From Azolla caroliniana (lineage: Eukaryota > Plantae > Polypodiophyta), in the NCBI GenBank assembly GCA_043228905.1, contig JBHGNT010000016.1, positions 10,602,001 through 10,666,000 of the forward strand: a stretch of DNA of 64,000 nt, read 5' to 3'. The notes under the pieces are model-generated. The model ran no database searches and was not told the DNA's origin. It saw only the letters and a list, made by a program, of their open reading frames with translations. Within the stretch, counting starts at the first letter, position 1. Each line of letters starts with the position of its first letter. The translations under genes and the position numbers were made by a program. Shown piece after piece: positions 7,477-45,700 of this stretch.

Positions 7477-10400
7477 TCTATAGATAGATAGATAGATAGA
7501 TTATATTATTGTTTTCGGAGGTCAAATATAACCTATGAGACCAAAAATATTATATTTCACGTGATATGTGTGAAAGTGAGTAGTGACTCTCGATGTTCAA
7601 GAACTTCACCAATTAATGTTGCAATTGAGAGTGCACATTGTGATTGTAAGAGGAATTCATGCAAAGATTGGGCTCGATCGAAAAGATGTGGAAAACATGG
7701 TCGAATATGATCAAAGGCAGAGCATTGTATCAAAGTGATACTTAGACTCGCGAACTTGTTTAGGGCAAAGTGTGCATAGCCGACCACTCTCATCACTTGT
7801 ACCCCAACGCCCTATTTCACATCGCAATGCATGTGAGCTAAGTCGCATGGAAGCAATGGTTCTAATGGCAGATAACGGTATAGGCTCTAACATATATGGA
7901 TGTGTATGATTTCCTCGTTCCACAAAGAATATGGTTTGTAGTTAGGTGCAACATGTGTAGTATAATGTGTGAAGCGTGAGACTCCACATTTGTCCCATGT
8001 CATGATACATTGGCGTTGCAAAAAGGCCTCATTTACAGAGGAATCTAATGATGCATCATGAAACAAGTGTCTCGCATCCCATCTACCAAACCATTTTTCT
8101 ATATCTTGCATTTAGCCGGAACACAAAATTTTGCTTTTATGTATCTTTTAGATCTTTTTGCTTGCTTCCCACGCAATTCTAGGAAGTCGATATGAGGGGC
8201 TTTTTTGAACCTTAAGCATGTATTCAACAACCCTTTCCATGGTCATGATCTCAATGGGAAGCGATCCCATCTCAAGGAGGAGGAGGGTGTAGGGCGTTTG
8301 TTTCTTAACTTGTAGAAACTTGGTAAGAAAATGCTTTTGGACATTTTCAAACTCTTTATACATAGATGTAGGGATACTACCGCCCCATACTTCCACCCCA
8401 TAGAGAAGAATCGGTGTCACCAAAGTGTTGAAAAGATATTTCTTGAGGACCCAACACTTAATATCTCCAAGATTGCATGTGTTCTCAAATGCATAGTATG
8501 CTCGCTTGCCCGCCTCTAAGCGGCGTGTAGCACATTCATTCCATCTATGATTTGAAAGAACTTCAAGGCCAAGATATTTGAAGCTCTCCACACATTCAAG
8601 TGGCTCATTGTTGTACATAATGCATGGTTTATCTCTTTTTTGGCTCTTCACAAGCATAATCTTTGTTTTAGAGCTATTGACACTTAATTTAGTATGCATG
8701 CAAATTTTTTCCAATGCCTTCATAAACTTTTGTGCATCTCCTAAAGTGTTTGCAAAAAGCACTACATTATCTGCATATAGCAAAAGCATAATTACAACAT
8801 TCCCAATGGCAACTTCTTCAACACATTCTTCCTTTTCAAACTTGGTAACCATTTCTTCCAATTCATCAATGCATAGACCAAATAGTGTTGGTGAGAGTGG
8901 ACATCCTTGCTTAACACCAATAGAGCTTTTGAAAAAATCTAAAAGTTTATCTCTCATGCGCACACAACATATAACCTTCTCATAAATTCAGGAAATTGCA
9001 AGCATATATTCACTTGGCACCTCAAGTTCTTCCATTCGCCTCCAAAGATGCTCACGAGGTACCATATCAAAAGCTTTCTTGAAGTCTACAAAGCAACAAT
9101 ATAAACCTTTACCTCTAAGGCGACTTTCCTCCGTTAATACTCGAAGGGTGATAAGGTGATCAATGGTGCTATGGTGTTTTTGAAAGCCAACTTGTCCATA
9201 AACTCTCTTACCACTTTTTTCAGCCCATACACTTATCATTGATTCCATTATACATTCAAATAGTTTTGCCATTAATGAGCCAACCATGATGGTTCGATAG
9301 TTGTTTACATTATTTATATCTCTACCTTTATGTAAAGGTTTGATCCAATTTGTAGTCCAATCGTACGACATACCATGTTGCAATGCATCATTAAACATAT
9401 CGCTTATCTATATATGTGTTTCCTTTCCCATCCATTTGAGCATTTTAGCCTTTATACATTGAAGATCGCTTGCCTTTCGAGAGGCCAATTTCTTAAGTCC
9501 TATGCATATATCTTTAATTGTAAAGAAGGGAGGCATATGTGAAAGAGAACCATAACACATCATCTTTCCGGCAAGAGATAACTCATATAAATTCTTACAA
9601 TGCATAGACAAGTTGTGAAGAGTTAAGTCACCATAACTCTCAACACGTTGTCGCGTTGTTACGCGCGTGCGTGGAGAAAGGCGGGACCACGGGGGTCTTG
9701 GACTAGGGAGTGACGGAGCGTAGGAAGTTGTGCTTCACCATTTTCGGGGGATCCTAGAAGAACACCGGATGCGACCGAAGGGAGAGAGAGAGAGAGAGGG
9801 AGCGCGCGCTTAACACCGACTCACGCACACACACACACATGCCGACCCGACTCACGCCCTTATGTATAGGAAACGCAGGAAAGGGGAAGCACCCGACACC
9901 AACAGAGACGCGAATATACACAGACAGACGCAAACGTATATATATATATATATATATAAGAAGAATACATTCCCGGCTTCGAGCCGGACCAAGATAGCTT
10001 ACAATAGTCGTCTGCTGTCAAGCCGCCGTTGGGGAGCTCTCGGGCCCGTCGCGCCGAGCGGGGTCTTGCACAGGAGATGAGCTGCAGCAAACCCTAAGCG
10101 AACACGAATGGGGGAGAAGAAGAAGAAACTAACTCTAAACCTAACGGTATACCCTCTAATGCAAAATGGGCAACCCTTTCACAAAGGGTGTTCCCTTCCT
10201 TTTATAGAACAAGGACAGGGATGCGTTACAATGTGGGATAAACCCCGACTTACATGGGACCGTCTGTCCCGACTTGACTACTTTTCGGCGCCATAAAGGC
10301 GCCCTCGTTATTCACACTAAATGTACATGGGTGCGTACACACGCTGCACCCCACCGATGTAGCCAATGTTTCCCGGTTTCCGCCTCTGGCCAAAATTCTT

Positions 10401-12860
10401 CACGACAATGTTTTCCCTTTAGATTTCCCCAAAATTTAGCACATGCATGTGCTTTCTCTTGCGTTTGGATAAATTGTTGAGTAACTTCCCATATTCTTCT
10501 CTTTCTTTGAATAAGCCTTTTATACTCATGCAAATGCTTTTGGTAATTCTCTTTATCCTTAACTACATCCAAAACCATAAGGCACTTTCGAGCTTCACGA
10601 CATTCTTTATCAAACCATTTTTTCCTAAGTTTCTTGGTGCACTTCCAAGATGTGCGGTTGGTCGAAAAACATTTGTTTGTACATGAGAGAATGACTTTCT
10701 TGAAAGCTTCCCATTTGCATTCTAGTGTGGCACCATGTTGTATCTTTGTCATTTGTAACATATCCTCAACCATCTTGGAATACATGGGTGCTCGCTTAAG
10801 GTTCATGCTCAAGTGCGGTTGTTTATTATCTTCAATAGCCTTCTCACAACCAAACCTATGCATACATTTGAGATCAATACATAAAGGCCTATGATTGGAT
10901 TCCGGTGTCCATTCACCAAGTGAGAATTTATGTATACGATCCAAAATACCTTCGGAAAGTAGCACATAGTTAATCACACTATTTCCGTTGTGTTTTCTAC
11001 ATGTAAAACCATTAGTGTTGGGCCATAAGAAAATACCATTTGCAATAAGCAATCCGGTACTATTGCACATTTTTAGGAGTAACTTCCCAAATTGGTCCGG
11101 ATCTTTTTGATCGCTAGAAGAGCGGTTATACATTTGCATATCCTCTTGCATCCTTGAGATATGTGGCATGAAAGACTCTTGTGAATCAAGTTGGAAACTT
11201 CTTGTACGAGCATTCATGTCACCAAAGACAATAACTTCCCCTTTGGATTTGAAATAAGCAATATCATCTTCTAGATTGGCAAACGGTTGATCTTTATCCA
11301 AACAAGCATAAAAGTTAGAATCTTGATGAGGAATGTAACATCCAACTACAAAAGTGGGCAAATCATTAGGTGTTTCTATTTTGAGCCATATGTAGCATTT
11401 ATTTTCATCATTTTTTATGATTGACACATATTTCTCTATTTCCTTCTTAATCAAACATGCCACCCCTCCTTGTCCTCTTCTTTGTCTTGGATTTTTCTTC
11501 CATATCAAAGAGTGTACATTATAGTTTCCTAAACCTTGAATCCTTTGAGTATCATGCTCCCATGTTTCAACAAGAAGTGTGATATCCGAGTCATCGGTGA
11601 ACTCCTCTATGCCAAATCCCGCATTCCATGGGTATCCATTGCAATTCCAAAAGCATAGTCGTAAAAGGCGTGGGTTAGTCTCATAGATCACGTGTCCCTA
11701 TTTGCCTACATTTCCATCTTTAGGCACATCCTTAACCTTGTTTTTCAATCTTTCTTCATATGCTTTACGACGAGCATTTTGTTGTGAGATAGTACGATCT
11801 TCACTCACAAAGCATTGTGTACCTTTGAGGTATACCCAACTATTTTCGAGTATGATCCACCACTTTGTATCATCTGTCATTGTGCATACAATAGGCCTTT
11901 CTCCGGAGCGAGTAACACCATGTTTCCCAACTCGGTGTGCCCCATATACATTCACATCTGACATCCCATAATGCATGCTAAAAAATTCACCAATGGCCTT
12001 TCCAAGGGATGCAGGTGTTTCCATACTCTCTTCTTTAATCCCACGGACGACAATATTCTTTGATCATCGTTCACGTTCTTTCAATTCTTGGACATCTATG
12101 CTTTCTATATTCTTCTCTTGATGAATCACATGCATATTAGATGAGTTTGATAGCACATCCCCACCACATACATCGGCCCATGACTTCGTTGTACATACAT
12201 TTTTCATCTCAGTTACATCCCGCCTCATCGTGTCCAATTTTTCTTCTTTTAATGCTTCCTTTAACTCAATCTTGTTAAGGCGCTCATTTGTTTCAAAAGA
12301 AGCTCTTTTACATTCTTGAATCTCTTCTTGAAGTTTTGCAACCACTTGTTTATGCCTTTCATTCTCAATGACAACACTTTGGAGCTTAGTATTCTCTTTC
12401 ATTAACGTCCTAATCTCTTCACCTTGCTTATTTATGGTTTCTTGAAGAGAAATCAAGTGACTCATAAGCATTTTGTCCATTGCATTAGAATCGAGATTTG
12501 TTGGTGATCTCGGCTCATTATCAATCATACCCCCGAACTTTGCGGCGGTTTTACGAGTATTTGCCATTGTAGGGACAAACCCTACGGGAAAAGAGAGACA
12601 AAGAGGGAAGGAGAGAGAATGTACCTTTCACTCAATTTAGGGCTTCAAAATCTACCTTCCGTTTGAGGAACCGTGGGGCAAAGATGGCTGCGGATGAAAA
12701 TGCTCATAACTTCTCGCCACGGTAACGGAATTTAGTAAATGAACATTCTTTAGAAAGCTCTCTCAAAGAGCTTTCCAACGAGCTATAGAACGTAGAAAAC
12801 GATGGCCGGAGTGAACTTACAGAGAGAGGGAGAGAGAGAGAGAGAGAGAGAAGCATCGAG
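7477..12860 (-). mobile_element. Near full-length LINE, RTE-X-like (ORF1 plus APE-RT ORF2), degraded and interrupted by a solo LTR at 9649-10407
   Basis: ORF1 pieces at 11698-12567 (coiled coil, then RVG..RPIV..FVSED). APE domain 10408-11691 (WNCNG, ETW, GDMNART, SNHRPL). RT (NNYRTI, FVDFKKAFD, GVKQGCPLSPTLF, LLYADN). C-terminal SSHALRCEIGRW..CTLC..HF motif. (TCTA)n tail at ~7480-7500. The 5' limit is approximate. Confidence 0.9.
9649..10407 (-). mobile_element. Solo LTR, 759 bp, 4-bp TSD ACGT/ATGT
   Basis: Ends TGTCGCG...CACGACA. Removing it plus one 4-bp copy restores the LINE ORF2 frame (NLKGKRVESYGDL). TATAAAA lies on the minus strand at ~10200. Confidence 0.9.
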
Positions 12861-15776: not shown

Positions 15777-15779
15777 CAA

Positions 15780-16160: not shown

Positions 16161-16162
16161 GA

Positions 16163-16175
16163 AGAGAGAGAGGGA

Positions 16176-17421: not shown

Positions 17422-17768
17422 TGTTGAGCAACCAAGCTCAACCGGATCCGGATCGGCTGAAGAAGCCTAAGCTGGATCGACATCCGGAAGGATGAGCCAG
17501 ATCGGTATCTGGATGGTATCTGGAAACAACCGGCCAGATCGGGGAGATGAATCGGAGAGCCGGATTCGAGCGGGAACCGAAAGCTTAGTAGTAGCCTAGA
17601 CTACTAGGTAATCATTGTCTCGTAGTTAGTGTTAGTCGCACGTAGGAATATTGAAGTACCTGTCAGTACTTCTGTCAGTCCTTTATGGACTTGTATAAAT
17701 AGTGTTGTTTAGCACGTTGTATGTACATAGAGTTTTCAGAGTGATATTTCGAAGTGAGTTTATGTTTT

Positions 17769-17813
<45 letters not shown>

Positions 17814-24907: not shown

Positions 24908-26036
24908 CTTCGTCTCCTTCAATGACGACTACAGCCGGCATACGTGGATCTACCTCATTGAACAGAAGAGCAAGTCTTTGAATGTTTCCGGAACTTACAA
25001 AGCTTAGTTGAATGGCAAAATGGAGAGGAAGGTCAAGTGCTTGCGGTCAGATGGCAGAAAAGAATACTTTTCCGGCCAATTCAATAGTTATCTGCAGCAG
25101 AACGGAATTCGGAGAGAGTTCAACTGTAGATACACGCTGGAGCAAAACAGTGTGGCTGAAAGGAAGAACCGATCGATTGTCGATGCGGCAAGGTCAATGT
25201 TGGAAGAGAAGAGAATGCCCCATTTCTATTGGGTTGAGGCGGTCCGAACGGCCATCTACATCCAAAACCGGATCAGAGACAAGGTGTCAGCACATGAGCT
25301 GTATTTCGGGCGAAAACCGAATTTGAGACACCGTCGGATATTCGGTAACATAGCATATGTGCATGTATCAGATGAGAAGCGGAGGAAGTTGGATCTGAAG
25401 TTAGAGAAGTGCATCCTAGTCGGCTACTCGCATGAGAAGAAGGGGTATAAGTGTTAGAACCCCCAGACTAAGTAGGTCCCAGTAAGCCAAGATGTCAAGG
25501 TTGATGAGACGGCATCATGGTACTCCCTACCGGCTCCAACTTCCGACGAAGACCCGATTCCGGAAGATGAGGCTAGTGAGCCCGAGGAGGTTCAAGCAGA
25601 AGATGAAGAACTTGTCACTCTAGAAGAGAGTCTGATCTCATTCCGGCTAAGTGGACCTAATAAGTGCCTGAGTTGGGATGACCAATCGAATGAGGAATCA
25701 GAGTAGTTGAGACTCTGTCATGCTCTCCCCGCGCAAGGAACCGAGGAGACAGTTCATGCGCAAAGAGAAGGGGAAGAAGAAGATGCCATAATACAAAACC
25801 GGAAATGTTGACTCGGATCGGAGTGAATCCAACTTCGGAAAGAAAGAAGGTGGATCTTCAGAAAGGAAGCCCGAATCGGCCAAGAAGGGCCTCAAACTGG
25901 GTAACGACAAGTTACGCCGGTCATCTCGCCAGAAGAACCCCGTTATGTGGTACAGGTACAATGAGTACATGGCGCATCACTATGCGTACATGACCAAAGT
26001 GGCGGAAGTGCGTGAGCTGGAGAGCTACGCAGACGC

Positions 26037-26114
26037 TGTCGCGAAGATTCGCGCGTGCGTGTGCTACTCTTCGTCTCACTCGGTTTCACACCGTAGCCGA
26101 AAATCGTCACGACA
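26037..26114. mobile_element. 78-bp miniature LTR-like insertion, 4-bp TSD ACGC
   Basis: TGTCGCG...CACGACA flanked by ACGC on both sides. Interrupts the ESYADAAKDA codons of element B. Confidence 0.9.
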
Positions 26115-28573
26115 ACGCGGCAAAGGATGCAAATTGGCGTGCCGCTATGGAGGAAGGAATGTGGGCACTCAATGCCAATGACACATGGGACCTCGTTGAC
26201 CCTCCTCGACACCGTAAACCGATCGGTTGCAAATGGGTGTACAACGTAAAGTACAATGCCGATGGTTCAATTAACCAGTAAAGGGCACGGTTAGTGGCGA
26301 AAGGATACGCACAGACCCACAGAATCGACTACAACGAGACCTTCGCTCCGGTAGCGAAGATGACGACGGTTCGTGTGGTACTGGCGGTTGCTTGCTACAA
26401 GGGGTTAACATCTTCACCAGATGGACGTGAAGAATGCGTTTCTTCAAGGTGACCTTGAAGAACGGGTCTATATGATCCAACCTCCCGATTTTCAGTCGGA
26501 GATGAACAAGTGGGTTGTGCGGCTTAAGAAGTCGCTTTATGGTCTGAAACAAGCCCCCTGAGCTTGGAATGCAAAGATCACACACCGGTTGCATAAGATG
26601 GGGTTTGTGACCTCTAAATTTGACTCCTCATTGTTCATCCGGCAAGGTCCGGACGGTCCGGTTTGCATCCTACTTTATGTTGATGATTTAGTCATCACCA
26701 GACCCGGACTCAATGAAATCGGCCGAGTAAAGTCCTAGTTGTCGGACGCATTTGAAATGAAGGACCTGGGGGACCTTCATTATTTTCTTGGGATCGAGGT
26801 GATCCGAACCTCCGACGGCATATTGCTCTCACAACGACACTATGTGTTGAATATGTTGTACAAGTTCGGCATGACGGAATGCCGACTTGTCTCTACACCC
26901 CTAGACCAGAACTAGAAGCTTTGTCCCAACTCCGGACCAGCATGCGATGAGAAACGACCTCGTATACCTGACAATCACTCGATCCGACCTTAGTTACCCG
27001 GTCGGAGTGATCAGCCTGTTCATGCATAAGCCGACCGTCGAGCACCTTCAGTGCGCACACCGGATACTCCGGTATATTAGCGGCACGAAGGATCGGGGAC
27101 TGTTATACCAACACGGTATAGCTAGAAAGTTAGTCGGATATACCGATGCCGACTGGGTTGGTGATGCATTGGATCACCGATCCACCTCTGGTGACATGTT
27201 TTCTCTAGATAGCGTGGTTGTTGTGTGGAGCAGCAAAAATCAGCCAACAACGGCTCTGTCGAGCATTGAGGCTGAGTACCGGGGCGCTACCAATGCCACC
27301 TGTGAAGCCATCTAGCTTCGAGGACTACTGTGGGACCTCCGGATCGAGGTACCAACCCCGATCCTGATCTACTGTGACAACATGAGCAACATTCAGCTTA
27401 CCAAGAACCTTGTGTTCCATGCTCGGACAAAGCACATAGAAGTCCATTATCACTTCGTGCGTGATCGGGTTTTGAGCGGTGAAGTTGAACTTTGGTATGT
27501 TCAGACGAATCGGCAAGTTGCCGACATCTTCACCAAACCACTCGGATCGGACAAGTTGCAACATTTCACCGAAATGCTTGGTGTTCACCATCTTGACGTG
27601 CCGCACTTGAGCCGGAGAGGAAGAAATAACCAACAAAGGGGGAGACAAGAGGAACAAGGAAGCCGAGTCGACGAAGGAAGTTGGCACATCCGAACAAGTC
27701 AGAATGAGCGGCAGCGGCGGTAGAGTCAAGAAGGACAAAGCCGACCGGAATGAGAAGGCCAAGACCCGGACATGGTCTGATGTGGTGAAGGGCATGAAAC
27801 CGGAAGACGAGTTGGAGAACACCGACTCGGACAAGAGCGGGAACGAATCGGAGACAACCGATTCGCTTCAACAGTTCGATTCAAAGGAGCCGGATCAACT
27901 AAAGGCCAAGCGGACATGGACGCAGCGGAAGTCGACGCCAACATGGAGGAACCGACAGGTCGACAAGCGCCGGAGTCGCAACAGCAAGGGAGCTGAAATG
28001 AGCCTATTGAGCAGACAAGCCGACCAAGGAGGTCGAGGTGCGCAGAACTAGAAGGGTCGCGGAAAACGGGACTGGACCGGACGAGGAGTGCGAGCAAGGC
28101 GGAGCGACACCAAAAGGAGCTGAGTAGAAGAGTCGGCTGCCACGGACTCTAACACCACGATCCGACCTCAAGTTGAGCTTGAGGGGGAGTGTTGAGCAAG
28201 CAAGCTCAACCAGATCCGGATCGGTTGAAGAAGCCTCAGCCGGATCGGGGAGACGGATTCGAGCGAGAACCGGAAGCCTAGTAGTAGCCTAGACTACTAG
28301 GTAATCATTGTCTCGTAGTTAGTGTCAGTCGCACGTAGGAATATTGAAGTACCTGTCAGTACTTTATGGACTTGTATAAATAGTGTTGTTTAGCACGTTG
28401 TATGTACATAGAGTTTTCAGCGTGATATTTCGAAGTGAGTTTATGTTCTGCTCTCTCTCTCTCCCACGCGTATTCTCTGTGTATTAAGCTTCTCCATTAA
28501 ACCTTCATCTTATTCTCTGTTGCTATCTGGCTGAGCCAAGTCTGTCTAACGCTTCTGTACGTTTACATTCACA

Positions 28574-30860: not shown

Positions 30861-32708
30861 TATCTTCATGATTGATTGACTACTTGAGATCTTGTACAGT
30901 TAAGATCCCCGTACAACATTACCTAGGATTGTGGACCGACAACCTCAAATTTCCTGATGGTCCGACTACAAGAGGGACACTTGGACACAGACATAATAGT
31001 GGGAGGATGTGCAATGTTTTTTCATATTTGAAATCCATTTTCATTGAATGTGACTTTCAATTTTAACACAAGTCATGATCAACTTTTTAAACAACAATAT
31101 TGAATTATTTTTACATTTTTAAGTTTTTCCTCCTCATCGAATTAGTACAAAAATTTTGGCCAAAAGTTGGTACATTGTAGCGCGTTTTAACCCTTAGGCA
31201 TCCACTATTTTGGAAGACAAGACGTTGTCGGTTTTCTGCTACGTTTTGTGCTAGTTTGGAGCGATAGGTGTAAGTCCTCTGCTCGCGTAGGAAGACCATG
31301 TGCTCCCGACCAGAGGCTCACTAGTCGTATGCGCTCATTCGAATGCTCGTCGCTGAATCTTTGATCTGTTTGCGGGTTCATTCAGCCCTCGATCGTTTCC
31401 TCTCTAGACAGTATCCTCTCTTAGTGCTACATCTTCAGTTTATTGGCATTCTGATTCTTTTGACTTTACCTTTTTAGCTCGTCTAATCGGGTCAATCTTC
31501 GACTTTCCTTCTACTATTTTTTCGGTTCTCTTCTGTTCGGTTGCTTGTCGTAGTCCAATCATTATCCTTAGTGCTATGGAGCATTGATCTGGGAGTGGCT
31601 TCATCAGGCAATCGGCGATGTTCACCTCAGTGTCGATCTTCCGAACTTCGAGCTTCTTCTCTATTACGAGCTCTCGGATATGATGAAACCGTAGCTCAAT
31701 GTGTTTCGTCTTGGCATGATAGACTAGATTTTGGATGAGGTGTATTGTGCTCTTAGAGTCGTAGTCGATGGTCGGCGTTCGATGGTCGATTCGCCTTGTC
31801 GACGAGAAGTCGGTTGATAGTTGGTGCATCTCAATGGCTTCCTTCACGGACTCCAATGCTGCTATGTACTCAGCCTTTGTGGTAGACAGGGTCGTGCAAT
31901 CTTGAAGCTTAGACCTCCATGATATGGTGCGGCCACCATAGGTGAAGAGATAGTCTAATGTCGACATCCAATTATCCGTATTTTTGGCATAGTCTTCAAC
32001 TTTGGTCGCATTTGCTGATCCGAAAGTCAGTTGTACAACTTCGGTTTCTCTTAGATACCTAAATATGTGCTTGACAACCTCCCAATGCTTTGGTTCTAGG
32101 TTTGACATATACCTGCTAATGAACCCTACGACATATGCAAGGTCAAGTTAGGTCGCGACCATAGCATTCATGATACTTCCTACGGCTGATGCATAGGGTA
32201 TCTTTCCATTGAGCTTTCTCTCCTCATCAATTGAAGGAGAGTCTTTGTCCAATAGTCAGAATGACGTTGGAATCGGTGTTGGTGTTGGCTTTACATTCTC
32301 CATATTGAAGCGCCTCCGCGCCTTTTGGATGTAGTCAAATTGGGAGAACTGGAGGGTCTTTGCTATCCGATTTCGCTTTATCCGCATGCCTAGTATGTGT
32401 CGGGCTTGTTTGAGTTCCTTCATCGGGAATTTATCGTGAAGGCTTTGCTTTAACTTTCCGATTTCTTCTCGATCGTTGCCGGCGATGAGCATGTCATCGA
32501 CATATAGTATCAGATAGATCTAGGATTCGTTAGCCAATTGCTAAATATACATACATGGGCCGGAGTCGAACCGGCGGTAGCCAAGCTACAAAATGTAGGT
32601 ATCGAACTTCTAATACCACATTCTTGGCACTTGTTTTAAGCCATAAATGCTTTTCTTTAGTCGACATACGAGGTGTCCTTCCTCCCCCATTATTGTGAAG
32701 CGTGTCGG

Positions 32709-34231
32709 TGTCGTGTGAATCTTCACACACTATGTAAAAAAATAATGAAATAATTATTATAGATTAGATTAGTAGCTTACTATAGAAAGATGGATATACT
32801 CAAGAGCTTCAAAATGTATTTTACTATATACAAAATGGAGAAATACATATCAAGTTATGTTAAAATAAAGTTTGAGCAGATAGGGAAATTAGAACTATCC
32901 CACATAGATAGGAAAGTTAAGGCCCTGGCTATATAAGCACCTTGAGCTCCCTCATTTTTCATTTGTGCTAAGAGTACTTTGGCCACTTTGTCTTGATGGA
33001 TGATGGTGGCCAAATTCCCTAAAACCAGAAATCGGCAGGTAAGCAAATCCGGAAAACGGTTTCGGTAAGCAAATCCGGAAATTGGCCGGTATGCAAACCG
33101 GAAATAGACTGGTAAGCAAAATTGGAACTGGAACCGGCAAGCAAACTGGAATCGGAAACCGGCCGGTATGCAAATCGGAAACTGGCCAGTAAGCAAAACC
33201 GGAACCGGAACCGGTATGCAAACCGGAAACCGGTCGGTAAGCAAAACTGGAATTGAAACCGGCCGGCAAGCAAAACCGGAACTGGTATGCAAACCAGAAA
33301 CCGGCCGGTAAGCAAAACCGAAACCGAAACCGGCAAGCAAACCGAAACCGGAACCAGTATGCAAACCGGAAACCGGCCGGTAAGCAAAACTGGAAACCGG
33401 TCGGTAAGCAAAACCGGAACCGGAATCGGTAAGCAAAATCGGAACCGGAACCGGCGAGCAAACCGGAACCGGAACCGGCCGGCAAACAAAATGGAACCGG
33501 CTACCGGACGAGGTTGGACGCGGAGGGACGAAAGATTGGATCATGCAACAAACTAAAGTAAAGTGAAGAGAACTAAAGTAAAGGCCATGTGGACGCAAGC
33601 AACTAAAGTTGGAGTGCATGCAAAAAGTAAAGGTCATGTGGACGGTCACATGCAACTAAAAGAAAAAGCCATGCAACTAAAAATAGATGCAACTAAAAGA
33701 AAAAGTTAGGCAACTAAAAGTAGAGGCCATGCAACAAAAAGTGGAAAGGCTATGATCAAGGGAGAACTCAATATATATTCCATTTTTTTTCTTACACTCA
33801 TGCTCTCTCCATATTATATTTCTTTTTCTTTTCCTTCTCAACTCCCTTATCTTAGGGAAGCCATATCTCTCAAGTAAACCCTAATTTCCTTACGGAAGCC
33901 ATATCTTACTCATAACCCTAAATTTCCATACGGAAGCTATTCAATTCATAAAACCATAATCTCTTATCAAAGCCAAAAACGCTAATTTTCTATAGAATTC
34001 ATATCTTAATTTCCTCTAATCTATTACTCTAGCCATCTCCATTAGCACACTTTTTGTAATCCCAATCTTGGGATTAATTGTAATCTTTCTTTCTACTTGT
34101 TAATGAAATTTGTTAATCTTTCTCATTTCGGTTAATTCTTAGTACATAAATACACGAATTTGATATCCTCTAGTCAAAGGCCCCTAGGTCTTGCCTCAAC
34201 GTTCACGTATCCTCGTCGTATTTCCGCGACA
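32709..34231 (+). mobile_element. Solo LTR, 1523 bp, 4-bp TSD TCGG/CCGG
   Basis: TGTCGTGTG...CGCGACA. Start resembles the LTR at 35657 (TGTCGT..TG.AT..CACACACTA). Removal restores the RT frame (YMSQPARFTIMGEEGHLVCRL). Confidence 0.9.
33030..33505. repeat. CCGG-rich minisatellite within the solo LTR
   Basis: Modules GCAAA(A)CCGGAAACCGGCCGGTA(A/T) and (GGAACC)n are iterated. Confidence 0.92.
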
Positions 34232-35656
34232 CCGGTTGAGACATATAGATGTCTTCTTCCAAATCTCCATGTAGGAATGTCGTCTTGACGTCAAGCTGCT
34301 CAAGCTCTAGGTCTTTAGACGCCATGACCCGAAGTAGGAGTCAAAGGGTGGTCATCTTGACTATTGGTGAGAATATTTCATCATAGTCAACCCTGTGTTC
34401 TTGTTTGAATCCCTTGATGACAAGTCAAGCTTTTTATTTGGGCTTCTCAAAATCAGATACATATTTGTATCTGAAGATCCATTTGCAGGGCAACAACTTC
34501 CTTCCACTTGGTAATTCAACCAACTCCCCTGTTTGATTCTGATGAATTGAACCCATCTCGAATTTCATGGCTTGTAGCCATGTGCTAGCTTCTGGCATGG
34601 CTATAGCTTCTTCGTAGGAGCTTGGTTCGCCTACATTCGTGTAGTTGACATAGTCGAGGCCTAGTTGATAGAACTTTGTTGGCCTTCGACTCGTCAGGAC
34701 CTCCTCGGTGCTGAGTTGATTGGTTCGAATCCATAGATCGGCTCTGTTGGCTTATCGGTATTACTTGAACCTTCTTAAGGATTTCTTTTGGATGACTCGA
34801 CCCTACAATAGGATTTCTGTGATGTTGAATCATCCTCCCCTTCTTCAGGATGGATTGACAGACTGGCTAGTGCCTTGGTCAGTTTTGTTCAACATTTCAG
34901 TACTTTGGCATGTTTGGGTGATAATCAGTCGCGCGGTGAGATGTGACAACCGCCTCTTTGAGCGACGTTCGGAACGACAGCTACAGATGCCGAGGACAAG
35001 ATTAGAGCCCACCTACGCCTCAGTGGTAGCAAGACCTTTTCCGAGGGAGTCATATAATGCACCTCCAGCGAATACTCCGACTCCGATGGAGATTGACACT
35101 ACATGTCGTCGAGGGCCATTATCCGAAGAAGAAAAGCAGCGACGCCGTACAAATCGACTATGTCTTTATTGCGGTGGACCAGGACATATTGCAATAAATT
35201 GCCCCCATAGGCCAAGAAGACAGGTAAACCAAATAGTCACTAGTTCTAATTGTACTAAATCTGAGCCTATTTCAGTAGGGATATCTGATAGTCCTAATAG
35301 TACTAATAGTACTGATATCCCAGATCTAGCAAACAAATTTGATGTCCTTAGTCAGTTAGAAGAAGAGTTAAACGACTAAGTCCAGCCAAAATAGGAGCCG
35401 TTTGGTTGGACAACCCTACATCTGTGCAGCCCATTAGTGGTTCCATTCCCTCTAAGCAAGTTAGTGATGTGTTCGTAGCCCAAGTAATAGTTAGTACTAA
35501 AAGTACCCCTCCAGTACATGTCCTAGCACTCCTAGATTCCGGAGCTAACTCTTGCTTTATGGATAAGAAATTTGCTCAAGCTCATAAGATATCCCTAAGA
35601 AAACTCCAGTGTCTAGCCTCTGTAGTAGTCATTGATGGACGTCCCATTGCTTCCGG

Positions 35657-38600
35657 TGTCGTAGTGTATTCCACACACTACGTGAAAACCATAAAATAAT
35701 ATATCCGATTTTAGATACATATAAATAAATAAATAATATATCAAAACATTTATCACGTGCATAGGGCAGGATTCAAACCCTACACCTCCACGTAGATAAA
35801 CCCCAACTTTACCATTGTAATAACTTATCTTTAGTGTTATACATATAGATTTAATACGTATAAGACCTTTATTTACACATACCTTTATTAAAAGGTAAAA
35901 ATCATGTATTCTTTAGAGTGTGAATATTTTATTTACACGTGACATTAAAAGTGACTCATGCACATCTAGCGTGCATGAGCCCTATATTTAGGAAATGACA
36001 AAGCATCACATGCACATTTAGTGTGCATGGACACTTTTGGAAAAAAGCATGAAGCCATGCTTAGCCTCTTCCATCTTTATATAAGGAGGGGAGAAATATG
36101 TATAAGGTTGTTGATTAATATACAAGGATTGATCAATCTAATATATTCGTGGGATTCACGAATTTTGCCATCTAAATTACTCTTATAATCTAAATATTGT
36201 TTTAAATACACTAAACTCGTGGGATTCACGAGATTGCTATCTTACTTCTCTTTCTACTATTCATAACTAGCCTTAAGTTGTATTCCTCTTCCTCCTAGTC
36301 CAAAACCTCGGCGGTTCCCACCCGACTCACGCAACGATCCGGAGCCGAAAGGCACGACACAGTTGGTGAACCCGACGTGAAGACCGGGTGGCAAGGAGAT
36401 GGAAAATCAACCGGAGGCTAGCAACATGATGATGATGTTCGAGCGCATGCTACAAGAACAACGCGCGATGTCGGAGATAGCGGCATCAGTGGAGCGGCTC
36501 GTGCAATGAAACGGGCAATTCAACGGGAAAGACGTGTCGCGGTATCTTCAGGACTACAAGGCGGAGATGCTACGGTGCGGAATATCGGAAGGACTGCAAG
36601 TGACGTCCTTCAACCGGGTGGCAACCGACGGGCTTCAAGCAAGCATCCATGGGCTACAACAACAAAATCCGACATGGGAGGCGTTTGAAGAAGAGCTAAA
36701 GAGGACGTTCGCCATCGAGGATTCCTCCAAGGCGACGCGAAGGGGATTCGAAGATTGGGTGGAGACGTCGGACAAGGGATTGAAGGTCGTTGATGTGTTT
36801 TCGGCATTCGAAAGCCGGTTCGGGAGGTTGTTCGCGAGAGATCAAGCTATCCTCGTACCAGACAAGGTGATCATGTTCTTGCGAGCCGTGGACGTCCGGG
36901 ACCGGAAAGATCTCGGAGTGCTCTTGGAGGACACGACCACGGAGAGTAGCCTCACCGAAACATGGGAAAGCGTGCGGGATATCGTCGCGCGATACACGAA
37001 GAGGGGGCAATGGCTTGCCAATGAGGAAAAGAGGGTTTCGGAACCGATTCCGAAACCGAGAACCGGATTGGAAGACCATCAACCAAGGGCTTGGGAGACT
37101 ACAACCGAGAAGGGGATTGATGCATCTACAGTGGAGCAACTATTGAAGGAGATGGAGAATCTAAAGATCGCGATGGTGAAGAAGTCGGATGACCGCCCCA
37201 CAAGCTCCAAGTATACGGACCGACGGTGCATATGGTGCGATGGCGCCGAACACGATCGGAGGGATTGCGACGAGCATAAGGAGGCGCTACGACGGGATCT
37301 CATCTACTATGAGGGAAACCAGATTCATTCGATGGACTCTCGGAAGCCACTCCGACCGAACTTCCGGAAAGGCGGCATGAAGAAGGTGCTCGAGGAGGAA
37401 ATGGCAGCAAGAAGCAACTATGCGACAACCGCGGGAATATGTGTCGGGGAGTCATCGAGAGCAAAGACGTCTTTTTGGCCGGAAGTTCTAGAAAACACCG
37501 AGAAAACCGACTCCAACTAGATCCGAAGCACCGCGGAAGGCGTCCGGGAAGCTACGGGATGGGAGTGCCCTGTCAACAAGAATAGCATATACGCCCTATG
37601 TCAATTGCATAAGGTGTATGTGGACGAGAAACGACGACGCACGAAGGATGCGGCCGGGCCATCGAAGATACCGGAAAGCTGGAACTCTGGAGGTAAGGGA
37701 AAAGAAAAGGCGACTCCAGCATTCAAGCTCGCCTCGGACATAGAACAACAAACCGACTTGAAAAGAGTGTTCGAGGAAAGAATCTTGGATAGCCGGGTAG
37801 ATTTCTCGCTTCGGGAGCTACTCGGATTAGCAAAGAAGGAGTTCCACGATCTTCTCGTGGATCTCGTGAAGCGAAAAAGACAAAGTACGGAGGAAAATGC
37901 TCCAAGGGTGAATGCGAACACCGTTTTAATGAACGACACCGAAGTGGAGAACGAAATTCCGAACTCCCACTATACAAGGCCACATTGGGCACGCGCGACT
38001 ACGGAGACTCCGGTCCGAATCGGCAACATCAAAGAACCCGTGCTAGCATTGATTGATCACGGATCGGAGGTCAACTTGATGTCCAAGGAGTTCTACCGGA
38101 AGGGGAAGTTTCCTATTAACACCAACCATGGATGGAAGATTCAGGCGGCCACCAAAGCAACGGAAGATCTATTTGCGGCTTGTCCGGATGTGACGGTGAA
38201 GATCGGGGATGTCGAGATCGACCAAAATTTCTTCGTGCAAGATGAGGTTTCACATTCCGTCATCCTCGGCCAACCCTTTATCACGGCATCACGGATGGAG
38301 ACGAAGGTGCTCGATAGCGGTGCGGCTTTTGCACGAATTCGGAGCCAAAACGGTGGGAAATCCGTCCAATTCCTAACGGTGCCGGCAAATCACGAAAGGA
38401 ACAAGAGGGAACTCTTGTCCCAAGTGAGAATGGATTTTTAAAGCGGACTGTTGCGGAGTGGGGAAGTGATAGTCCGAGAAGCCCTGATACCCCACACAGG
38501 AAGAAAACTCTTGGAGTAAAACATGTACAAATCGGTCCGGATGGGGCATCTACGTACACGACTGTAACTGGAGGATTGAAGAAAGGATACCGATGAGTGG

Positions 38601-41600
38601 AGGATAAGTTGCGGTCGGCATCAATAATGAAAGAAGATGAAGAAATTGTGGGGATAGTCGAAGAAGTGTTCTATGGGAGCACGCTACAACGACGTGAAGA
38701 GCTTGCGGAAGATAAAAACCAAGGGAACCGGGTAGTCCCGGTGGAATCGGTCGAGATGTACGAGATCATTGCGAAAATGGAGCCGGATACGCTCTGCAGA
38801 GAAGAAGCAATGGTAAGTACGAAATACAAGACCATGGAGAAGAAGGTGAAACCGGCCGCGGGACCACTACCCACCGATAGCGAACAAAAGAGGAAAGAAG
38901 TCTCGGGAGATCCGACACTTCGGAAGTCCGTGGATATCGGACATGCCTTCACGGATGAGACCCGGAAGAAACTTTGGATCGGTGGAGGTGGGTTCCTATT
39001 ACAAAAAGAAGAAGAACGGTTTCGCGAGATGTTGGAGCAACATGGCAAAGCGTTTGCATTTACATCAAGGGAGATAGGGTACGTCGATCCGAGAATAGTG
39101 GAGCCGATGGTGATCTTCACGATTGACCATGTACCGTGGAACCTGAAGCCGATTCCGATGCCACGAGCGCATATTCCGAAAGTCATTGACTTGCTCAAGG
39201 AGAAGGTGGCGATGGGGATTCTAGAGCCATCAACTACTCCGTACTCAAATCGATGGTTTACGGTTCCGAAGAAGAATGGAGTCCGATTTATCCAAGACTT
39301 GCAACCGGAGAATAAGGTCACGATCCGGAACTCGGGAGTCGGTCCAATAGTGGACGAATTTGCGGAAGCTTTTGCCGGTCGTGCGATATACTCCATCAGA
39401 GACCTATACTCGGGGTATGACCAATTCCAACTAGCCGTGGAGAGCCGAGACATCACAACCATGTGAACACCAATAGGGTTAGTCCGAATGTGCACACTAC
39501 CACAAGGAGCGACAAACTCAGTTGCTCATATGATGAACGCGATGAACAAGGTGCTTCGAGACTGCATTCCGGAGATAACGATGCCGTTCCTCGATGACAT
39601 TCCGATGAAAGGATGCGTGGTAGAAGAAAAAGATGAGACTATGGATGATCAGGGATGCCGAAAGTTCGTGGTCGACCATATTCATGATTGCGAGAAAGTG
39701 TTGCGAAAGCTAGAAGATGTGCACCTAACACTTTCTGGGGAGAAATCGGCATTCGGGCAAGAAGAAATATTGGTGGTCGGACATCTATGTGGGCCCTACA
39801 GCCGAAGACCGTCACCAACAAAGATCGATGCGATTCAAGCTATGGAGGAAATAGGCGAGTCAACATCCGAAGTCCGAAGGTTTCTCGGTGCATGTGCATT
39901 CTATCACATATGGATTCCGCACTATGCACATATAGCGGACCCGCTCTACCACTTGTTGCGGAAAGGTAAGAAATTTGAATGGAAACCGGAACACACCAAC
40001 GCCATGAAGAAATTGAAGAAGACACTTCGGAGGGCGGAAGCACTTAAGAAGCTGAGCTACGACCGACCGATCATAGTAACGGTTGATACAAGTCCAACCG
40101 GTATCGGGTGGGTCGTCAATCAAGCCGACTCGGATGGTTCACGGTATCCGATCCGATTCGGAGCAAAGGTTCTCAATGAAAGGCAACGTGGATATGCACA
40201 AGTCAAAAGAGAACTGTGGGGAGTCGTGTCGGCGATAAAATCGGATCGGGATTATTTGATCGGAGCCGAAGTGGTGATCGAGACGGATTGTCTTCCAATA
40301 CTCGGGATGATGCGGTGTTGTACGATACCGGATGTAGCTATGCTAAGGTGGGTTGCATATGTCAAGTCGCTTAATCCGGAGGTTCAACACATCTCGGGGA
40401 AGGACAACGCGGTAGCGGATATGTTATCAAGGGCTCGGTTCGGAGACGACATAACCGAATCGGATAATGAAGAAGTTTCCGAAGACTACTTCGCGTCGGA
40501 GCACATATGCCGAGTGAACGTAATCCGAGAATTACGGGAAGAAGAATACGAGGGAGAAAGTTTGATGATCGGAAAGATGTTACAAGAGGCCGAGGACTCA
40601 ACAAACGATAAAGGAAGAAGAGGCAAGTCCAAAAGTTCTTCTTGGAAAACGGATTAATATGGAGGGCGCCGAAAAGACCGCATGGTATACCACTTCGAGT
40701 AGTCGGGACAAAAGAGCAACGAAACCGGATAATATCCGAGTTTCACGAATCTGATTGGGCTGGACACCGAGGAACATGGGCAACATTTGTGAAGATCAAG
40801 CAAAAATATTGGTGGAAGAAAATGTACAAAGATGTCGCGGAGTTCACGGAAAGCTGCGAGAAATGTCAAGTCTACTCCGGGGTTCGACATCGAGATGAGT
40901 TACATCCGACATTCTAACCGACAATCAACTTCAAGTGGATGGTCGACATAGTGGCCATGCCGACCGGGATCGGACAAAAGAAATACTTGGTATTAGCTCG
41001 GGAAGATCTCACGAATCAAGTAGAAGGTCGAGCGCTTCAGAGGAAAACGTGTTCCGCCGTATGCCAATTTCTTTTGGAGGAAGTATTTTGCAGGTACGGG
41101 TGCGTAGGACAAGTGATTGCGGACCGGGGAGAACTCGACTCGGACAAAGCTAGGGGATTCTTCGCCAAACACAGAGTTCGGTTATCGCTGACAACGGCAT
41201 ACAATCCGGAGGCCAACGGGAAAATCGAACGAGGACATAATCCGATCGTGAAAGCACTTGCGAAGGCATGCGATGGAAAGGTGAAGAACTGGCCGCAGAT
41301 GCTTCCGTATGCACTATGGGCGGATCGGACGACGCATAGCTCCGTAACCGGTTACATGCCGGCAGAACTCATGACCGGACAAGCACCGGTAATGCCGACG
41401 GAAACCACGATCGCAACATGGACAATGCTACCGTGGAAGGAAGAGATGAGCCGGGAAGAACTACTAGCGGTCCGGATACGACAACTAGAGGGAAGACCGG
41501 CAGACATAGCGAAAGCAATACGCCGACAACAAGAAGCACGATTCCGGAACAAAAGCCGGTTCGACACAAAGCACCGACTACGACCGAGGAGGATTGAAGA

Positions 41601-42707
41601 AGGAGATTGGGTGATCGTCTATGACAATAGTTTGGACCATCAACATACAACGATGCGAAAATTCGCGAAAAGGTGGTTCGGGCCATACGAGGTTCGGAAA
41701 GTCTTCGATAACGGAACGTACCGACTGTCCGAGTTGGATGGAACAATACTACGAGTGCCTATAGCCAGGAAGCGGGTGAAGATTTTCAAGAAGTGGACCG
41801 ACGACAAACCCTATGTGATCCAAGCCAAGGCCGACAACGAGGAGCAATCGGACGAAGACCACGGTGATGCGGGAAGCGAAGAAAGTGAATTACAACTCAT
41901 AGTCGACATAAGGGGAGAATCGGAGGAAGCTTTGGGTGAAGACGGATATGAGGAATCGAGAACTTCGGCACATACCGGAGGATGTGCGGGTTCGGAGGGG
42001 GCGAGTGTTGTAGTGTATTCCACACACTACGTGAAACCATAAAATAATATATCCGATTTTAGATACATATAAATAAATAAATAATATATCAAAACATTTA
42101 TCACATGCATAGGGCAAGATTCAAACCCTACACCTCCACATAGATAAACCCCAACTTTACCATTGTAATAACTTATCTTTAGTGTTATACATATAGATTT
42201 AATACGTATAAGACCTTTATTTACACATACCTTTATTAAAAGGTAAAAATCATGTATTCTTTAGAGTGTGAATATTTTATTTACACGTGACATTAAAAGT
42301 GACTCATGCACATCTAGCGTGCATGAGCCCTATATTTAGGAAATGACAAAGCATCACATGCACATTTAGTGTGCATGGACACTTTTGGAAAAAAGCATGA
42401 AGCCATGCTTAGCCTCTTCCATCTTTTTATAAGGAGGGGAGAAATATGTATAAGGTTGTTGATTAATATACAAGGATTGATCAATCTAATATATTCGTGG
42501 GATTCACGAATTTTGCCATCTAAATTACTCTTATAATCTAAATATTGTTTTAAATACACTAAACTCGTGGGATTCACGAGATTGCTATCTTACTTCTCTT
42601 TCTACTATTTATAACTAGCCTTAAGTTGTATTCCTCTTCCTCCTAGTCCAAAACCTCGGCGGTTCCCACCCGACTCACGCAACGATCCGGAGCCGAAAGG
42701 CACGACA
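35657..42707 (+). mobile_element. Young, structurally complete non-chromovirus Ty3/gypsy (Phygy/Selgy-like, provisional); LTRs 35657-36359 and 42006-42707; TSD CCGG
   Basis: LTRs of ~702 bp differ by about 6 substitutions and 1 indel by eye. Gag-PR (LIDHGSEVNL) at 36400-38441. RT (DLYSGYDQ, LPQG, FLDD), RNase H (VDTSP, ETDC), INT (H..H..C..C, IADRG, GPY) to 42042. PPT GGAGGGGGCGAG. Several stops and frameshifts. Confidence 0.95.
36364..36381 (+). promoter_or_regulatory. Primer binding site, tRNA-Trp
   Basis: TGGTGAACCCGACGTGAA is complementary to the plant cytosolic tRNA-Trp 3' end (...UUCACGUCGGGUUCACCA). It starts 4 nt after the LTR. Confidence 0.88.
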
Positions 42708-45700
42708 CCGGAAATATCATAGAAGAGTCAGAGCCCATTAATATTGTCCTAGATAACTTAGCATGTCTAGTATCATTTAATATTATTAGTATCCTAGAAC
42801 ATCCTATAGTTTTAGGATTACCGTGGTTCAAGTTACAGAACCCAGACATAGATTGGAGAACAAGAGAAATCCGGTGTCGACAAACCCAAGGGTCAACTCA
42901 GAAGATGGCAACCATTTCGCCACGTCAGTTGCGTAAAGAAGGGCTCAAGGAGGAAATGTTCCTCTTTGCAATATCAGTAAACCCCTCCAGCACCACTAAA
43001 GAAGAATCCACCATTCAACTTCCCGAGAAGTATCGTCATTACGCCGATGTGTTCGATAAAGTACAAGCCAACACACTTCCTCATCATCGACCATACGATT
43101 GCCCCATCGATTTACAACCGGGAAAAGAGCCGCCATGGGGACCGATCTACAATTTGTCACCAACCGAGTTGGAAGTCATTCGGGCCTATATAGAGGAGAA
43201 TTTGGAAAATGGTTTCATTCGGCATTCAAAATCTCCAGCCGGCGCGGCGCACCCATTTTTTTCGTCAAAAAAAAAGATGGATCGCTTCGTCTCGTTGTAG
43301 ATTACCGTGGCTTGAATAAGGTTACAATCAGGAATAGATATGCTCTTCCCCTTATCTCAAGTCTTTTAGAACGGATCAATGGTGCCAGGTTCTTCACGAA
43401 GATCGACTTAATGGGAGCATATAACCTCGTACGGATCCGACCAGGAGACGAATGGAAGACCGCGTTTCGCACCAGATATGGGCACTTCGAGTATACGGTC
43501 ATGCCGTTCGGCCTCACTAATGCGCCGGCAGTCTTCCAGCACATGGCTAATGATATATTCCGAGATCTATTGGATGATTGTTTGATCATCTATTTGGATG
43601 ATCTACTGGTTTATTCAAAGACCCAAGAAGAACATGAATCTCATGTACTATTAGTACTAAAACAACTTCGAGAACATGGTCTGTATGCAAAGCTGGAAAA
43701 ATGTAGTTTCGGGTGCAACCAAGTGGAATTTCTCGACTACATCATTTCGTCAGAAGGCATCTCCATGGACCCAGCTAAGATCAAAACGGTGGTAGAATGG
43801 CAGATTCCGCGTTCGGTGCAGGATGTGCAATGCTTCTTAGGCTTTGCCAATTTTACCGGAAGTTCATACAAGATTACTCAAAGATCGTTCTACCTCTCTC
43901 ACAACTTACCAGGAAGGGACAACCGTTCATCTGGTCTGAAGAAACGGACATGGCTTTCGAGAGTCTTAAAAAGGCATTTACATCGGCTCCAATTCTAGCT
44001 CATGTTGATCCGGAAAAACCATTCATTATCGAAGCTGACGCATCGGATTTTGCATTGGGGAGCATTCTATCACAACAGGGGAATGATGAGAAGCTACATC
44101 CTGTGGCTTTTCACTCACACAAGTTTGATGCTGCCGAAATCAACTACGAAATTCATGATAAGGAGCTATTGGCAATAGTGGATTCTTTTATGCAATGGAG
44201 GCATTTTTTGGAGGGATCCTCTCATCCAGTCACCGTATTTAGTGACCACAAGAATCTTGCCTACTTTCAAGATGCTCGTGTGTTGAATCGACGTCAAGCT
44301 CGGTGGGCCCACTTCCTCACGCGTTTCGACTTCAAAATTACATATCGTCCGGGGAGGCACCAAGGGAAGGCAGATGCATTATCACGGCGTTCGTATCTAG
44401 CACCCCATCCCGACGACCCAGCTTTTGATAACCAAAAACAAGTCATCTTGGGACCGGCACGACTACAAGCAACACAGATATTTGACATGCCTATGGATTC
44501 CCGCGTTATCGATACCATACGTGAAGACTTGAAGACAGATGCGTTCGCCCAAGCTATACTAGCACAAATTGATCCCTCTCAAGCGTCGTGTTCACAGTCG
44601 CAACCACCAGGTACGGACTATCGGCAATTCAAATACCATGATGGATTACTCTTCTTTAAAGAACTTTTGTATGTTCCTAATGGTTCTTGCCGCCTTCGAG
44701 TAGTACAAAACTGTCATGACACATATACAACTGGGCATTTTGGAAGTACTAAAACATTACATTTAGTACAACGAACATTCTGGTGGCCCTGTATGCGACA
44801 ATTTGTCGAGGATTTTGTTCGGACTTGTGATACATGTTGCAGAGCGAAAATGCCAAGGCATCATCCATATGGTTTATTAGAACCATTACCAATTCCAAGC
44901 AAGCCGTGGCAATCCATTGCTCTAGACTTCATCACAGATCTTCCAGTCTCTAAGGGGTTCAATGCGATTCTAACGGTGGTCGATCAATATACGAAGATGG
45001 CTCATTTCTTGCCATGTACTAAGGAGATCTCCAGTGAAGACACTGCCGAAATTGTCATGCGTGAAGTATGTCGGCATCATGGACTTCCCGATAGTATCAT
45101 CAGCGACCGTGGACCCCAGTTCGTGTCAAAATTCTGGAAGCACCTTTTTAACATGCTCAAGGTCACTTGTAACCTCTCCTCCGACTACCACCCACAAACC
45201 GACGGCCAAGCTGAACGAACAAATCAAACGTTGGAGCAGTATCTGCGATGCTTTCTCAGCTATCATCAAGATGACTGAGCAAATATTCTCCACTTCGCCG
45301 AATTTGCCTATAACAACTCTATCCACGCATCCACTAAAGTTACGCCATTTTATGCTTATACGGGATGTCACCCCCGGTGGAGTGTACTTGAAACCCCAGA
45401 GGTGTCCACAAATCCGTGCGCGGAGGATCGTTTGGAGCAGTTACGCAAGATACAAGCGGATTTATCTACTCATCTCCAACAAGCTCAACAAACACACAAG
45501 GTCTACGCGGATTGTCATCTACTTCCATCAAGTTTTAATATTGGAGATCAGGTGTGGCTGCTACGACGACACATCAAGACTACTCGTCCATGTGAGAAGT
45601 TAGATTATCGGCGATTAGGTCCTTTCCATATTATTGGACAGATTAATGATGTCGCTTTTCGTCTCGATCTACCTCCTCAACTTCAGATACATCTGGTGTT

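What the first reader, a model, noticed from the sequence alone, without database searches (positions are those of the whole stretch)
9645..42711. Four independent insertions with TGTCG...CGACA ends all have 4-bp TSDs centred on CG: candidate CpG-targeting gypsy lineage
Seen: the TSDs are ACGT/ATGT (9649-10407), ACGC/ACGC (26037-26114), TCGG/CCGG (32709-34231) and CCGG/CCGG (35657-42707). In each case, removing the insert and one 4-bp copy restores the host reading frame, so the TSD length is secure. The hosts are four different elements: a LINE, two copias and a chromovirus. Established: most plant LTR elements make 5-bp TSDs with weak sequence preference, as do the four other LTR insertions with paired TSDs here. 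Inference: this Trp-primed lineage integrates symmetrically at NCGN, which would steer it into CG-rich or methylated TE bodies without a chromodomain. Even if CG made up 10% of dinucleotides, 4 of 4 would be about 1e-4. Caveat: n=4, and some 5-bp TSDs here also contain CG.
Basis: partly seen in the sequence, partly recalled or inferred. Interest (0 to 1): 0.82.

Follow-up and report, generated by a model that had tools for sequence, protein, structure and literature searches.

The report
CG-targeting Phygy-type retrotransposon insertions
Four related jumping-gene insertions here sit in 4-base target duplications centred on CG, as do most insertion ends of the same families in other data; they likely belong to the moss Phygy lineage, whose CG preference is already published, so the feature is real but known.

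Summary
All four inserts have TGTCG...CGACA ends and 4-bp TSDs centred on CG or a decayed CG.

They are one lineage. One is a full non-chromodomain Ty3/gypsy element (35657-42707), two are solo LTRs (9649-10407, minus strand; 32709-34231), and one is a 78-bp LTR remnant. Their LTR tips recur in metagenome contigs next to the same primer-binding site.

The CG preference holds outside the window. Of 85 distinct genomic flanks, 59 have CG at bases 2-3 and 23 have the decay forms TG/CA; background CG is about 4%. Loose-end consensus in three sequencing studies agrees.

It is not new. Neumann et al. 2019 list Phygy as '4 bp (100%) (NCGN)', tRNA-Trp PBS, no extra domain. Physcomitrium homologues exist, but no REXdb-labelled sequence could be compared.

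Likely mechanism (inferred): an integrase with a 4-bp stagger kinks the target at a central CpG. Steering into CG-rich DNA is not supported (local CG 1.5-6.3%). Methyl-CpG sensing is untested.

The parts
9649..10407 (-). Insert A: 759-bp solo LTR in a LINE; TSD ACGT (9645-9648) / ATGT (10408-10411)
   Evidence: U5 tip aligns with D's U5 (shuffle p=0.001); locus L117 is 89.5% identical over 362 nt and is followed by the PBS and a gag 41% identical to D's over 54 aa
26037..26114 (-). Insert B: 78-bp remnant made of the two tips of a ~670-700-bp LTR, in a copia; TSD ACGC/ACGC (26033-26036, 26115-26118)
   Evidence: U5 tip 33/33 identical to the PBS-linked LTR end of L014; both tips found at the two ends of the LTRs in L033, L063 and L072
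32709..34231 (+). Insert C: 1523-bp solo LTR with an internal ~24-bp-unit minisatellite (about 33020-33500), in a copia RT; TSD TCGG (32705-32708) / CCGG (34232-34235)
   Evidence: U3 tip like D's (p=0.003) and U5 tip like A's (p=0.007), but C-D U5 not significant (p=0.23); similar tips precede the PBS in L047 and L108; no blastn hit of C's body in the fetched loci
35657..36359 (+). Insert D 5' LTR, 703 bp; left TSD CCGG at 35653-35656
36364..36380 (+). Primer-binding site after a 4-nt spacer; read as tRNA-Trp from recall, not by a tool
   Evidence: the same site follows 26 of 112 distinct LTR ends in outside loci
36399..38441 (+). gag, DUF4100 and aspartic-protease region of D, with in-frame stops (36507-36509, 37518-37520)
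   Evidence: nine Physcomitrium patens UniRef proteins at 41-62% identity
38597..42042 (+). RT-RNaseH-integrase of D, interrupted by stops and frame changes; no Pfam hit for a chromodomain or an extra RNase H; integrase core and CTD at 40918-41820
41994..42005 (+). Polypurine tract
   Evidence: the same tract precedes D-type LTR starts in outside loci
42006..42707 (+). Insert D 3' LTR, 702 bp, 7 differences from the 5' LTR (5 are C>T or G>A); right TSD CCGG at 42708-42711
8148..11697 (-). Host of A: LINE ORF2 (endonuclease, RT)
24909..27618 (+). Host of B: Ty1/copia coding region
32271..34634 (-). Host of C: Ty1/copia RT
34720..46019 (+). Host of D: chromovirus (zf-CCHC, RT, RH, INT, SH3, Chromo), interrupted in its protease region

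Best explanation
The four inserts are one full element, two solo LTRs and one deleted LTR of related non-chromodomain Ty3/gypsy families that insert at N-CG-N and duplicate 4 bp; they likely belong to the Phygy lineage, and the integrase likely selects the site itself by kinking the target at the central CpG. Shown here: boundaries, TSD length, kinship of the four, and CG at flank bases 2-3 on both sides of the LTR. Inferred: solo LTRs arise by LTR-LTR recombination and B by a later internal deletion; TG/CA centres are CG sites deaminated after insertion; the two integrase active sites cut 4 bp apart around an unstacked pyrimidine-purine step, as in foamy virus, with this lineage narrowing the general YR preference to CG, most often ACGT. 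The residues that read CG are not identified.
For: 59 of 85 distinct downstream flanks have CG at bases 2-3; 15 have TG, 8 CA, 3 other. Background is 87/2087 = 4.2%, binomial p about 2e-61 on 59/84. The pattern holds in D-type ends (32/40 CG, 8 TG/CA) and in A/B/C-type ends (27/44 CG, 14 TG/CA, 3 other). Upstream flanks: 7 of 11 CG, the others TG, TG, CA, TA. The loose-end plurality consensus behind D's LTR end begins ACGT in 3 of 3 runs from three studies (60, 54, 36 contigs) and C+CG in 3 of 3 (17, 20, 17). In 37 D-type ends the TSD centre is decayed in 6/37 (16%) and five conserved LTR CpGs in 30/185 (16%), consistent with near-100% CG at insertion. Phygy: 186 elements, 4 bp (100%) NCGN, tRNA-Trp 81%, no extra domain (PMC6317226 Additional file 5). 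Retroviruses with 4-bp TSDs select a central YR step, which PFV unstacks (PMC4422553). The integrase model's best solved matches are PFV intasomes.
Against: No REXdb-labelled Phygy sequence could be compared. The nine P. patens proteins are unlabelled and fall outside the 13-row clade (99/96) that holds D in an unrooted protease tree. D is 7051 bp, below the Phygy range of 7656-9968. Of 8 contigs with both flanks genomic, only 1 pair is identical, 4 differ at one base and 3 do not match, probably chimeric contigs. The identical pair is ATGG/ATGG, which may be a true insertion at TG. Ends with a decayed TSD do not carry more LTR decay than ends with an intact one (mean 2.0 vs 1.97, n=6 vs 31). 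C's link to the lineage is the weakest.
Confidence: 0.85

Rival explanations
1. The integrase, or a host partner, recognises methylated CpG, so the CG centre is a chromodomain-free route into silenced repeats.
For: All four window inserts are inside other retroelements. TSD centres decay to TG/CA, so the sites were methylated at some time. In P. patens, Phygy-in-Tcn1 was the commonest type among 26 near-identical nested pairs (PMC6911290). Phygy is among the lineages enriched at Apopellia centromeres (PMC12885004).
Against: The window is almost all retroelement, so nesting is expected. Methylation after insertion explains the decay equally well. No methyl-binding or chromo domain was found by Pfam, and the fold search returned integrases only. 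The sites are not CG-rich.
Confidence: 0.15
2. D belongs to a sister lineage of Phygy within a wider DUF4100-bearing gypsy group; NCGN targeting is an older trait of that group.
For: D and a B-type family group apart from the P. patens, Riccia and Adiantum sequences. Homologues reach Chara. The one-residue-shorter integrase core spacing occurs in 57 of 64 scorable distant representatives (81 of 145 not scorable).
Against: The tree is unrooted and uses only the protease region. Every structural Phygy feature except length is met. This is mostly a matter of where the name is drawn.
Confidence: 0.2
3. A, B and C are non-autonomous DNA transposons of the Ginger1 type (TG...CA termini, 4-bp TSD) or MITEs, unrelated to D.
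For: Ginger1 has LTR-like termini and 4-bp TSDs (PMC6839031). A, B and C share no long nucleotide match with D. C's body has no hit in the fetched loci.
Against: A-, B- and C-type tips are followed by the same PBS and by gag sequences similar to D's (L117, L123, L063, L071, L047). A- and B-type starts are preceded by a polypurine tract. The inverted repeats are only about 7 bp.
Confidence: 0.03
4. Chance: four CG-centred 4-mers picked out of a CG-containing window.
For: n=4 in the window; TGTCG occurs 80 times on the plus strand.
Against: 59 of 85 outside flanks against about 4% background; three independent runs agree.
Confidence: 0.005

Closest known systems
Phygy (REXdb non-chromovirus Ty3/gypsy; Neumann et al. 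2019, PMC6317226)
   Same: 4-bp TSD with NCGN motif; PBS read as tRNA-Trp; no chromodomain, aRH or extra ORF; polyprotein fills the interior; nesting in a chromovirus as reported in PMC6911290; multi-copy P. patens homologues at 41-62%.
   Different: 7051 bp against 7656-9968. The host is apparently not P. patens (inferred from the low identity). At least three LTR types occur side by side. The ACGT bias and the CpG-decay account were not seen in the passages I read.
TatI (REXdb)
   Same: 4-bp TSD, tRNA-Trp PBS in 75%.
   Different: TatI always carries an archaeal-type RNase H and is about 9 kb; D shows no such Pfam domain; no NCGN motif is listed for TatI.
Selgy (REXdb)
   Same: Short non-chromovirus element with a 4-bp TSD.
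   Different: tRNA-Ala PBS, about 5 kb, no NCGN motif listed.
Prototype foamy virus and other retroviral integrases with 4-bp TSDs (PMC4422553)
   Same: 4-bp stagger; central pyrimidine-purine step; T disfavoured at the first and A at the last TSD base (here 3 and 2 of 59 CG flanks); same fold.
   Different: Retroviral preference is weak; here it is close to absolute for CG. The integrase core is one residue shorter after the second catalytic Asp.
Drosophila errantiviruses (gypsy, ZAM and Idefix groups; PMC5408687)
   Same: Ty3/gypsy elements with sequence-specific palindromic targets (TATA, CGCG or ATAT).
   Different: Different lineage and host; CGCG has a central GC step rather than CG.

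Membership tests
Phygy | Ty3/gypsy domain order GAG-PROT-RT-RH-INT | tested here: met
   Pfam DUF4100, Asp_protease_2 (below cut-off), RVT_1, RT_RNaseH, rve in that order
Phygy | No chromodomain, aRH or extra ORF; coding region fills the interior | tested here: met
   No such Pfam hit in D's five ORFs of 289 aa or more; acidic tail runs to the PPT
Phygy | 4-bp TSD | tested here: met
   Empty-site contigs; paralogue registers
Phygy | NCGN target motif | tested here: met
   59/85 CG plus 23/85 TG or CA; 7/11 upstream; 6/6 loose-end consensus groups
Phygy | PBS complementary to tRNA-Trp | tested here: inconclusive
   A conserved 17-nt PBS is shown; its match to tRNA-Trp is recalled, and the window holds no tRNA gene to compare
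Phygy | Length 7656-9968 bp (descriptive range in P. patens) | tested here: not met
   D is 7051 bp; Neumann et al. call size relatively insignificant for classification
Phygy | RT/RH/INT clade membership in the REXdb phylogeny (the formal criterion) | not testable with these tools
   The REXdb fasta and element table were too large to read. Proxy only: unlabelled P. patens protease-region homologues
TatI | aRH domain | tested here: not met
Selgy | tRNA-Ala PBS and about 5 kb length | tested here: not met
   7051 bp; PBS read as Trp from recall
Chromovirus (Tcn1 and others) | Chromodomain at the integrase C-terminus | tested here: not met
   Absent in D, present in its host at 45279-46016
Ginger1 DNA transposon (for A, B, C) | Long terminal inverted repeats, no PBS/PPT context | tested here: not met
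   About 7-bp inverted repeats; the same tips adjoin PBS, PPT and gag in other loci
Ylt1 clade (fungal) | RT/INT clade membership and TSD motif | not tested
   No Ylt1 sequence was fetched; the passages of PMC5014426 shown gave no Ylt1 TSD

The most novel reading that the evidence does not exclude
The Phygy-type integrase is a near-absolute CpG-reading enzyme that prefers methylated CpG, giving non-seed plants a chromodomain-free way to aim insertions at silenced repeats.
Probability: 0.1. Interest if true: 0.7.

Novelty: new member of a known kind. Interest (0 to 1): 0.2.

Why it matters
The headline is published, so the finding mainly confirms it. Three small additions remain. The NCGN rule holds in several coexisting LTR families outside the set where it was described. 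The exceptions are nearly all CpG-decay forms, so the true preference may be close to absolute, which is unusually strict for a plant LTR element. I found no paper testing how Phygy reads CG or whether methylation matters (searches; NCGN with retrotransposon returned only the 2019 paper as relevant). These families are therefore convenient material for that open mechanistic question.

Tried and rejected
No own genome is held, so a genome-wide paired-TSD logo was not possible. The PBS pattern found 0 hits in viral contigs. The U5 pattern found 2 hits in GTDB archaeal MAGs, treated as chance and left out of all counts. The U5 pattern was designed from A, C and D, so its zero shuffle expectation in the window is no test. 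The first lay of contigs on the whole LTR did not list flank loose ends; a 65-nt stretch did. Rows dropped before the flank count: 129 matches in 123 loci were reduced to 112 distinct ends by their downstream 30 nt; 26 were PBS-linked and 1 too short; L032 was moved from PBS to flank on inspection, giving 85. An earlier cruder split gave 59/87. TSD pairs from metagenome contigs were judged unreliable because 3 of 8 do not match. Integrase loop idea: MAFFT and the profile alignments to PFV and Ty3 put the one-residue gap directly after D-R-G, and 202 of 203 motif matches in close homologues have the short spacing. Against it, phmmer put the gap about 15 residues later, distant relatives with the same spacing keep Pro or Gly there, and Ala188 contacts bases 3 positions outside the TSD; it is kept only as a lead. 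The ESM Atlas gave generic gypsy clusters. Cluster look-ups of 8 and 10 proteins named no Phygy. The scan's earlier findings returned nothing. The RLG2 and CpG-target paper searches gave nothing relevant.
Full report
1. Observation. All four inserts have the stated TGTCG...CGACA ends and 4-bp flanks ACGT/ATGT, ACGC/ACGC, TCGG/CCGG and CCGG/CCGG. Pfam identifies the hosts as a LINE, copias and a chromovirus. The frame test fixes TSD length only modulo 3 and is unclear for C. Length 4 is shown for D by empty host sites in two runs (15 and 12 contigs), for B by an 82-nt offset against a paralogue, and for C by register against a paralogous RT. Three control LTR insertions in the window have 5-bp TSDs.

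2. Anatomy. D (35657-42707) has 703/702-bp LTRs with 7 differences, a PBS after a 4-nt spacer, a PPT, and gag-DUF4100-protease-RT-RH-integrase broken by several stops, with no chromodomain or extra RNase H hit. A, B and C share no long match with D, but their tips are related once A and B are read on the minus strand. Shuffle p-values are D-A U5 0.001, C-A U5 0.007, C-D U3 0.003 and A-B 0.002; C-D U5 is 0.23. There were 28 comparisons, so only D-A clears a strict correction.

3. Kinship from outside loci. An A-type LTR (89.5% over 362 nt) and an LTR end 33/33 identical to B's tip are each followed by the same PBS as D. Gag behind A-, B- and C-type ends matches D's gag at 27-45%, and one protease region matches at 59%. 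B consists of the two tips of a roughly 670-700-bp LTR. C is the least well tied: similar tips exist, but no locus matches its body.

4. Target motif. 129 matches gave 112 distinct ends: 26 PBS-linked, 1 too short and 85 genomic flanks. Bases 2-3 are CG in 59, TG in 15, CA in 8 and other in 3. Background CG further along the flanks is 87/2087. ACGT is the commonest 4-mer (29 of 84). Among the 59 CG flanks the first base is A in 40 and T in 3, and the last base is T in 35 and A in 2. On the upstream side, 11 distinct genomic flanks give CG 7, TG 2, CA 1 and TA 1. Independently, contigs from three studies give a loose-end plurality consensus starting ACGT (60, 54, 36 contigs; agreement 0.38-0.43, so the flanks are heterogeneous) or C+CG (17, 20, 17); this gives no frequency. 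In 37 D-type ends, the TSD centre (6/37) and five conserved LTR CpGs (30/185) are decayed to the same 16%. This fits a near-absolute CG preference followed by deamination. Against that, decayed and intact ends carry equal LTR decay, one solo-LTR contig has identical ATGG/ATGG, and 3 of 8 contig pairs do not match.

5. Mechanism. Inferred: the integrase cuts with a 4-bp stagger and unstacks the central dinucleotide, as PFV does at YR steps (PMC4422553, passages), and this lineage restricts that step to CG. The AlphaFold model (mean pLDDT 76.4) matches PFV, Ty3 and other integrases and shows no extra reader domain. The core is one residue shorter after the second catalytic Asp in 202 of 203 close motif matches. 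Profile alignments leave PFV Ala188 unmatched (numbering inferred from a 3-residue offset). The gap's position is not unique and Ala188 acts outside the TSD, so this is a lead only. Steering to CG-rich DNA is not supported: local CG is 1.5-6.3% and flank observed/expected is 0.80 against 0.89 for the window. Methyl-CpG sensing is untested.

6. Known systems. Neumann et al. [quoted passage not shown] Its element table and domain fasta could not be read. Jedlicka et al. 2019 (PMC6911290, passages) report GC-centred 4-bp TSDs and Phygy-in-Tcn1 nests. Phygy is also annotated in a liverwort (PMC12885004, passages). Named homologues of D are from Riccia, Adiantum and Ceratopteris, Physcomitrium (9 of the 120 listed, 41-62%) and Chara. 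In an unrooted 43-row protease tree, D and a B-type family share a 99/96 clade apart from P. patens. Errantivirus targets (PMC5408687), Ginger1 (PMC6839031) and Ylt1 (PMC5014426) were seen as passages only. The tRNA-Trp reading of the PBS is recalled. The host organism was not identified; a non-seed plant, probably a moss, is inferred from the homologues.

7. Verdict. The feature is real and strongly supported. It works like Phygy, and it is probably a member (about 0.8; the formal tree test was not possible). The target motif has been in print since 2019. What remains open is how CG is read and whether methylation matters; searches found no such test in the held library, which lacks most subscription journals.

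Noticed in passing
window 19657-24907, 17422-28573, 52004-52659: Nested copia elements and a solo LTR with 5-bp TSDs (CTTCG, CAGTG/CAATG, ATCGT); the window is a stack of nested retroelements.
   Followed up: partly
window 33020-33500: A degenerate ~24-bp minisatellite inside solo LTR C doubles its length relative to D's LTR.
   Followed up: no
window 36360-36363: A 4-nt spacer lies between LTR end and PBS; related families show 2 to 6 nt, longer than the usual 1-3 nt (recalled).
   Followed up: no
window 38430-38600: The protease ORF ends at a T5A3 run and pol continues in another frame; many intact homologues are separate RT-RH-INT proteins of about 1100-1190 aa, suggesting a natural two-ORF layout.
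   Followed up: no
L033 39-733 and 2399-3087: Two B-type LTRs 2.36 kb apart, each between a PPT and a PBS: a tandem small element or an assembly collapse.
   Followed up: no
L055 1420-3951: A short D-type element of about 2.5 kb between LTR ends, with partial gag: a possible non-autonomous deletion derivative.
   Followed up: no
L040 199-262, L053: LTR ends inserted into the RT-RH-INT region of the same lineage, at ACGG and ACGT.
   Followed up: partly
window 41120-41200 (integrase D-R-G-E-L motif): One residue shorter than PFV, Ty3 and the window's chromovirus between the second catalytic Asp and the Y-x-P motif; shared across a wide clade.
   Followed up: partly
window 3445-3756 / 3751-4062: A perfect 312-bp tandem duplication inside a copia: a recent event or an assembly artefact.
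   Followed up: no
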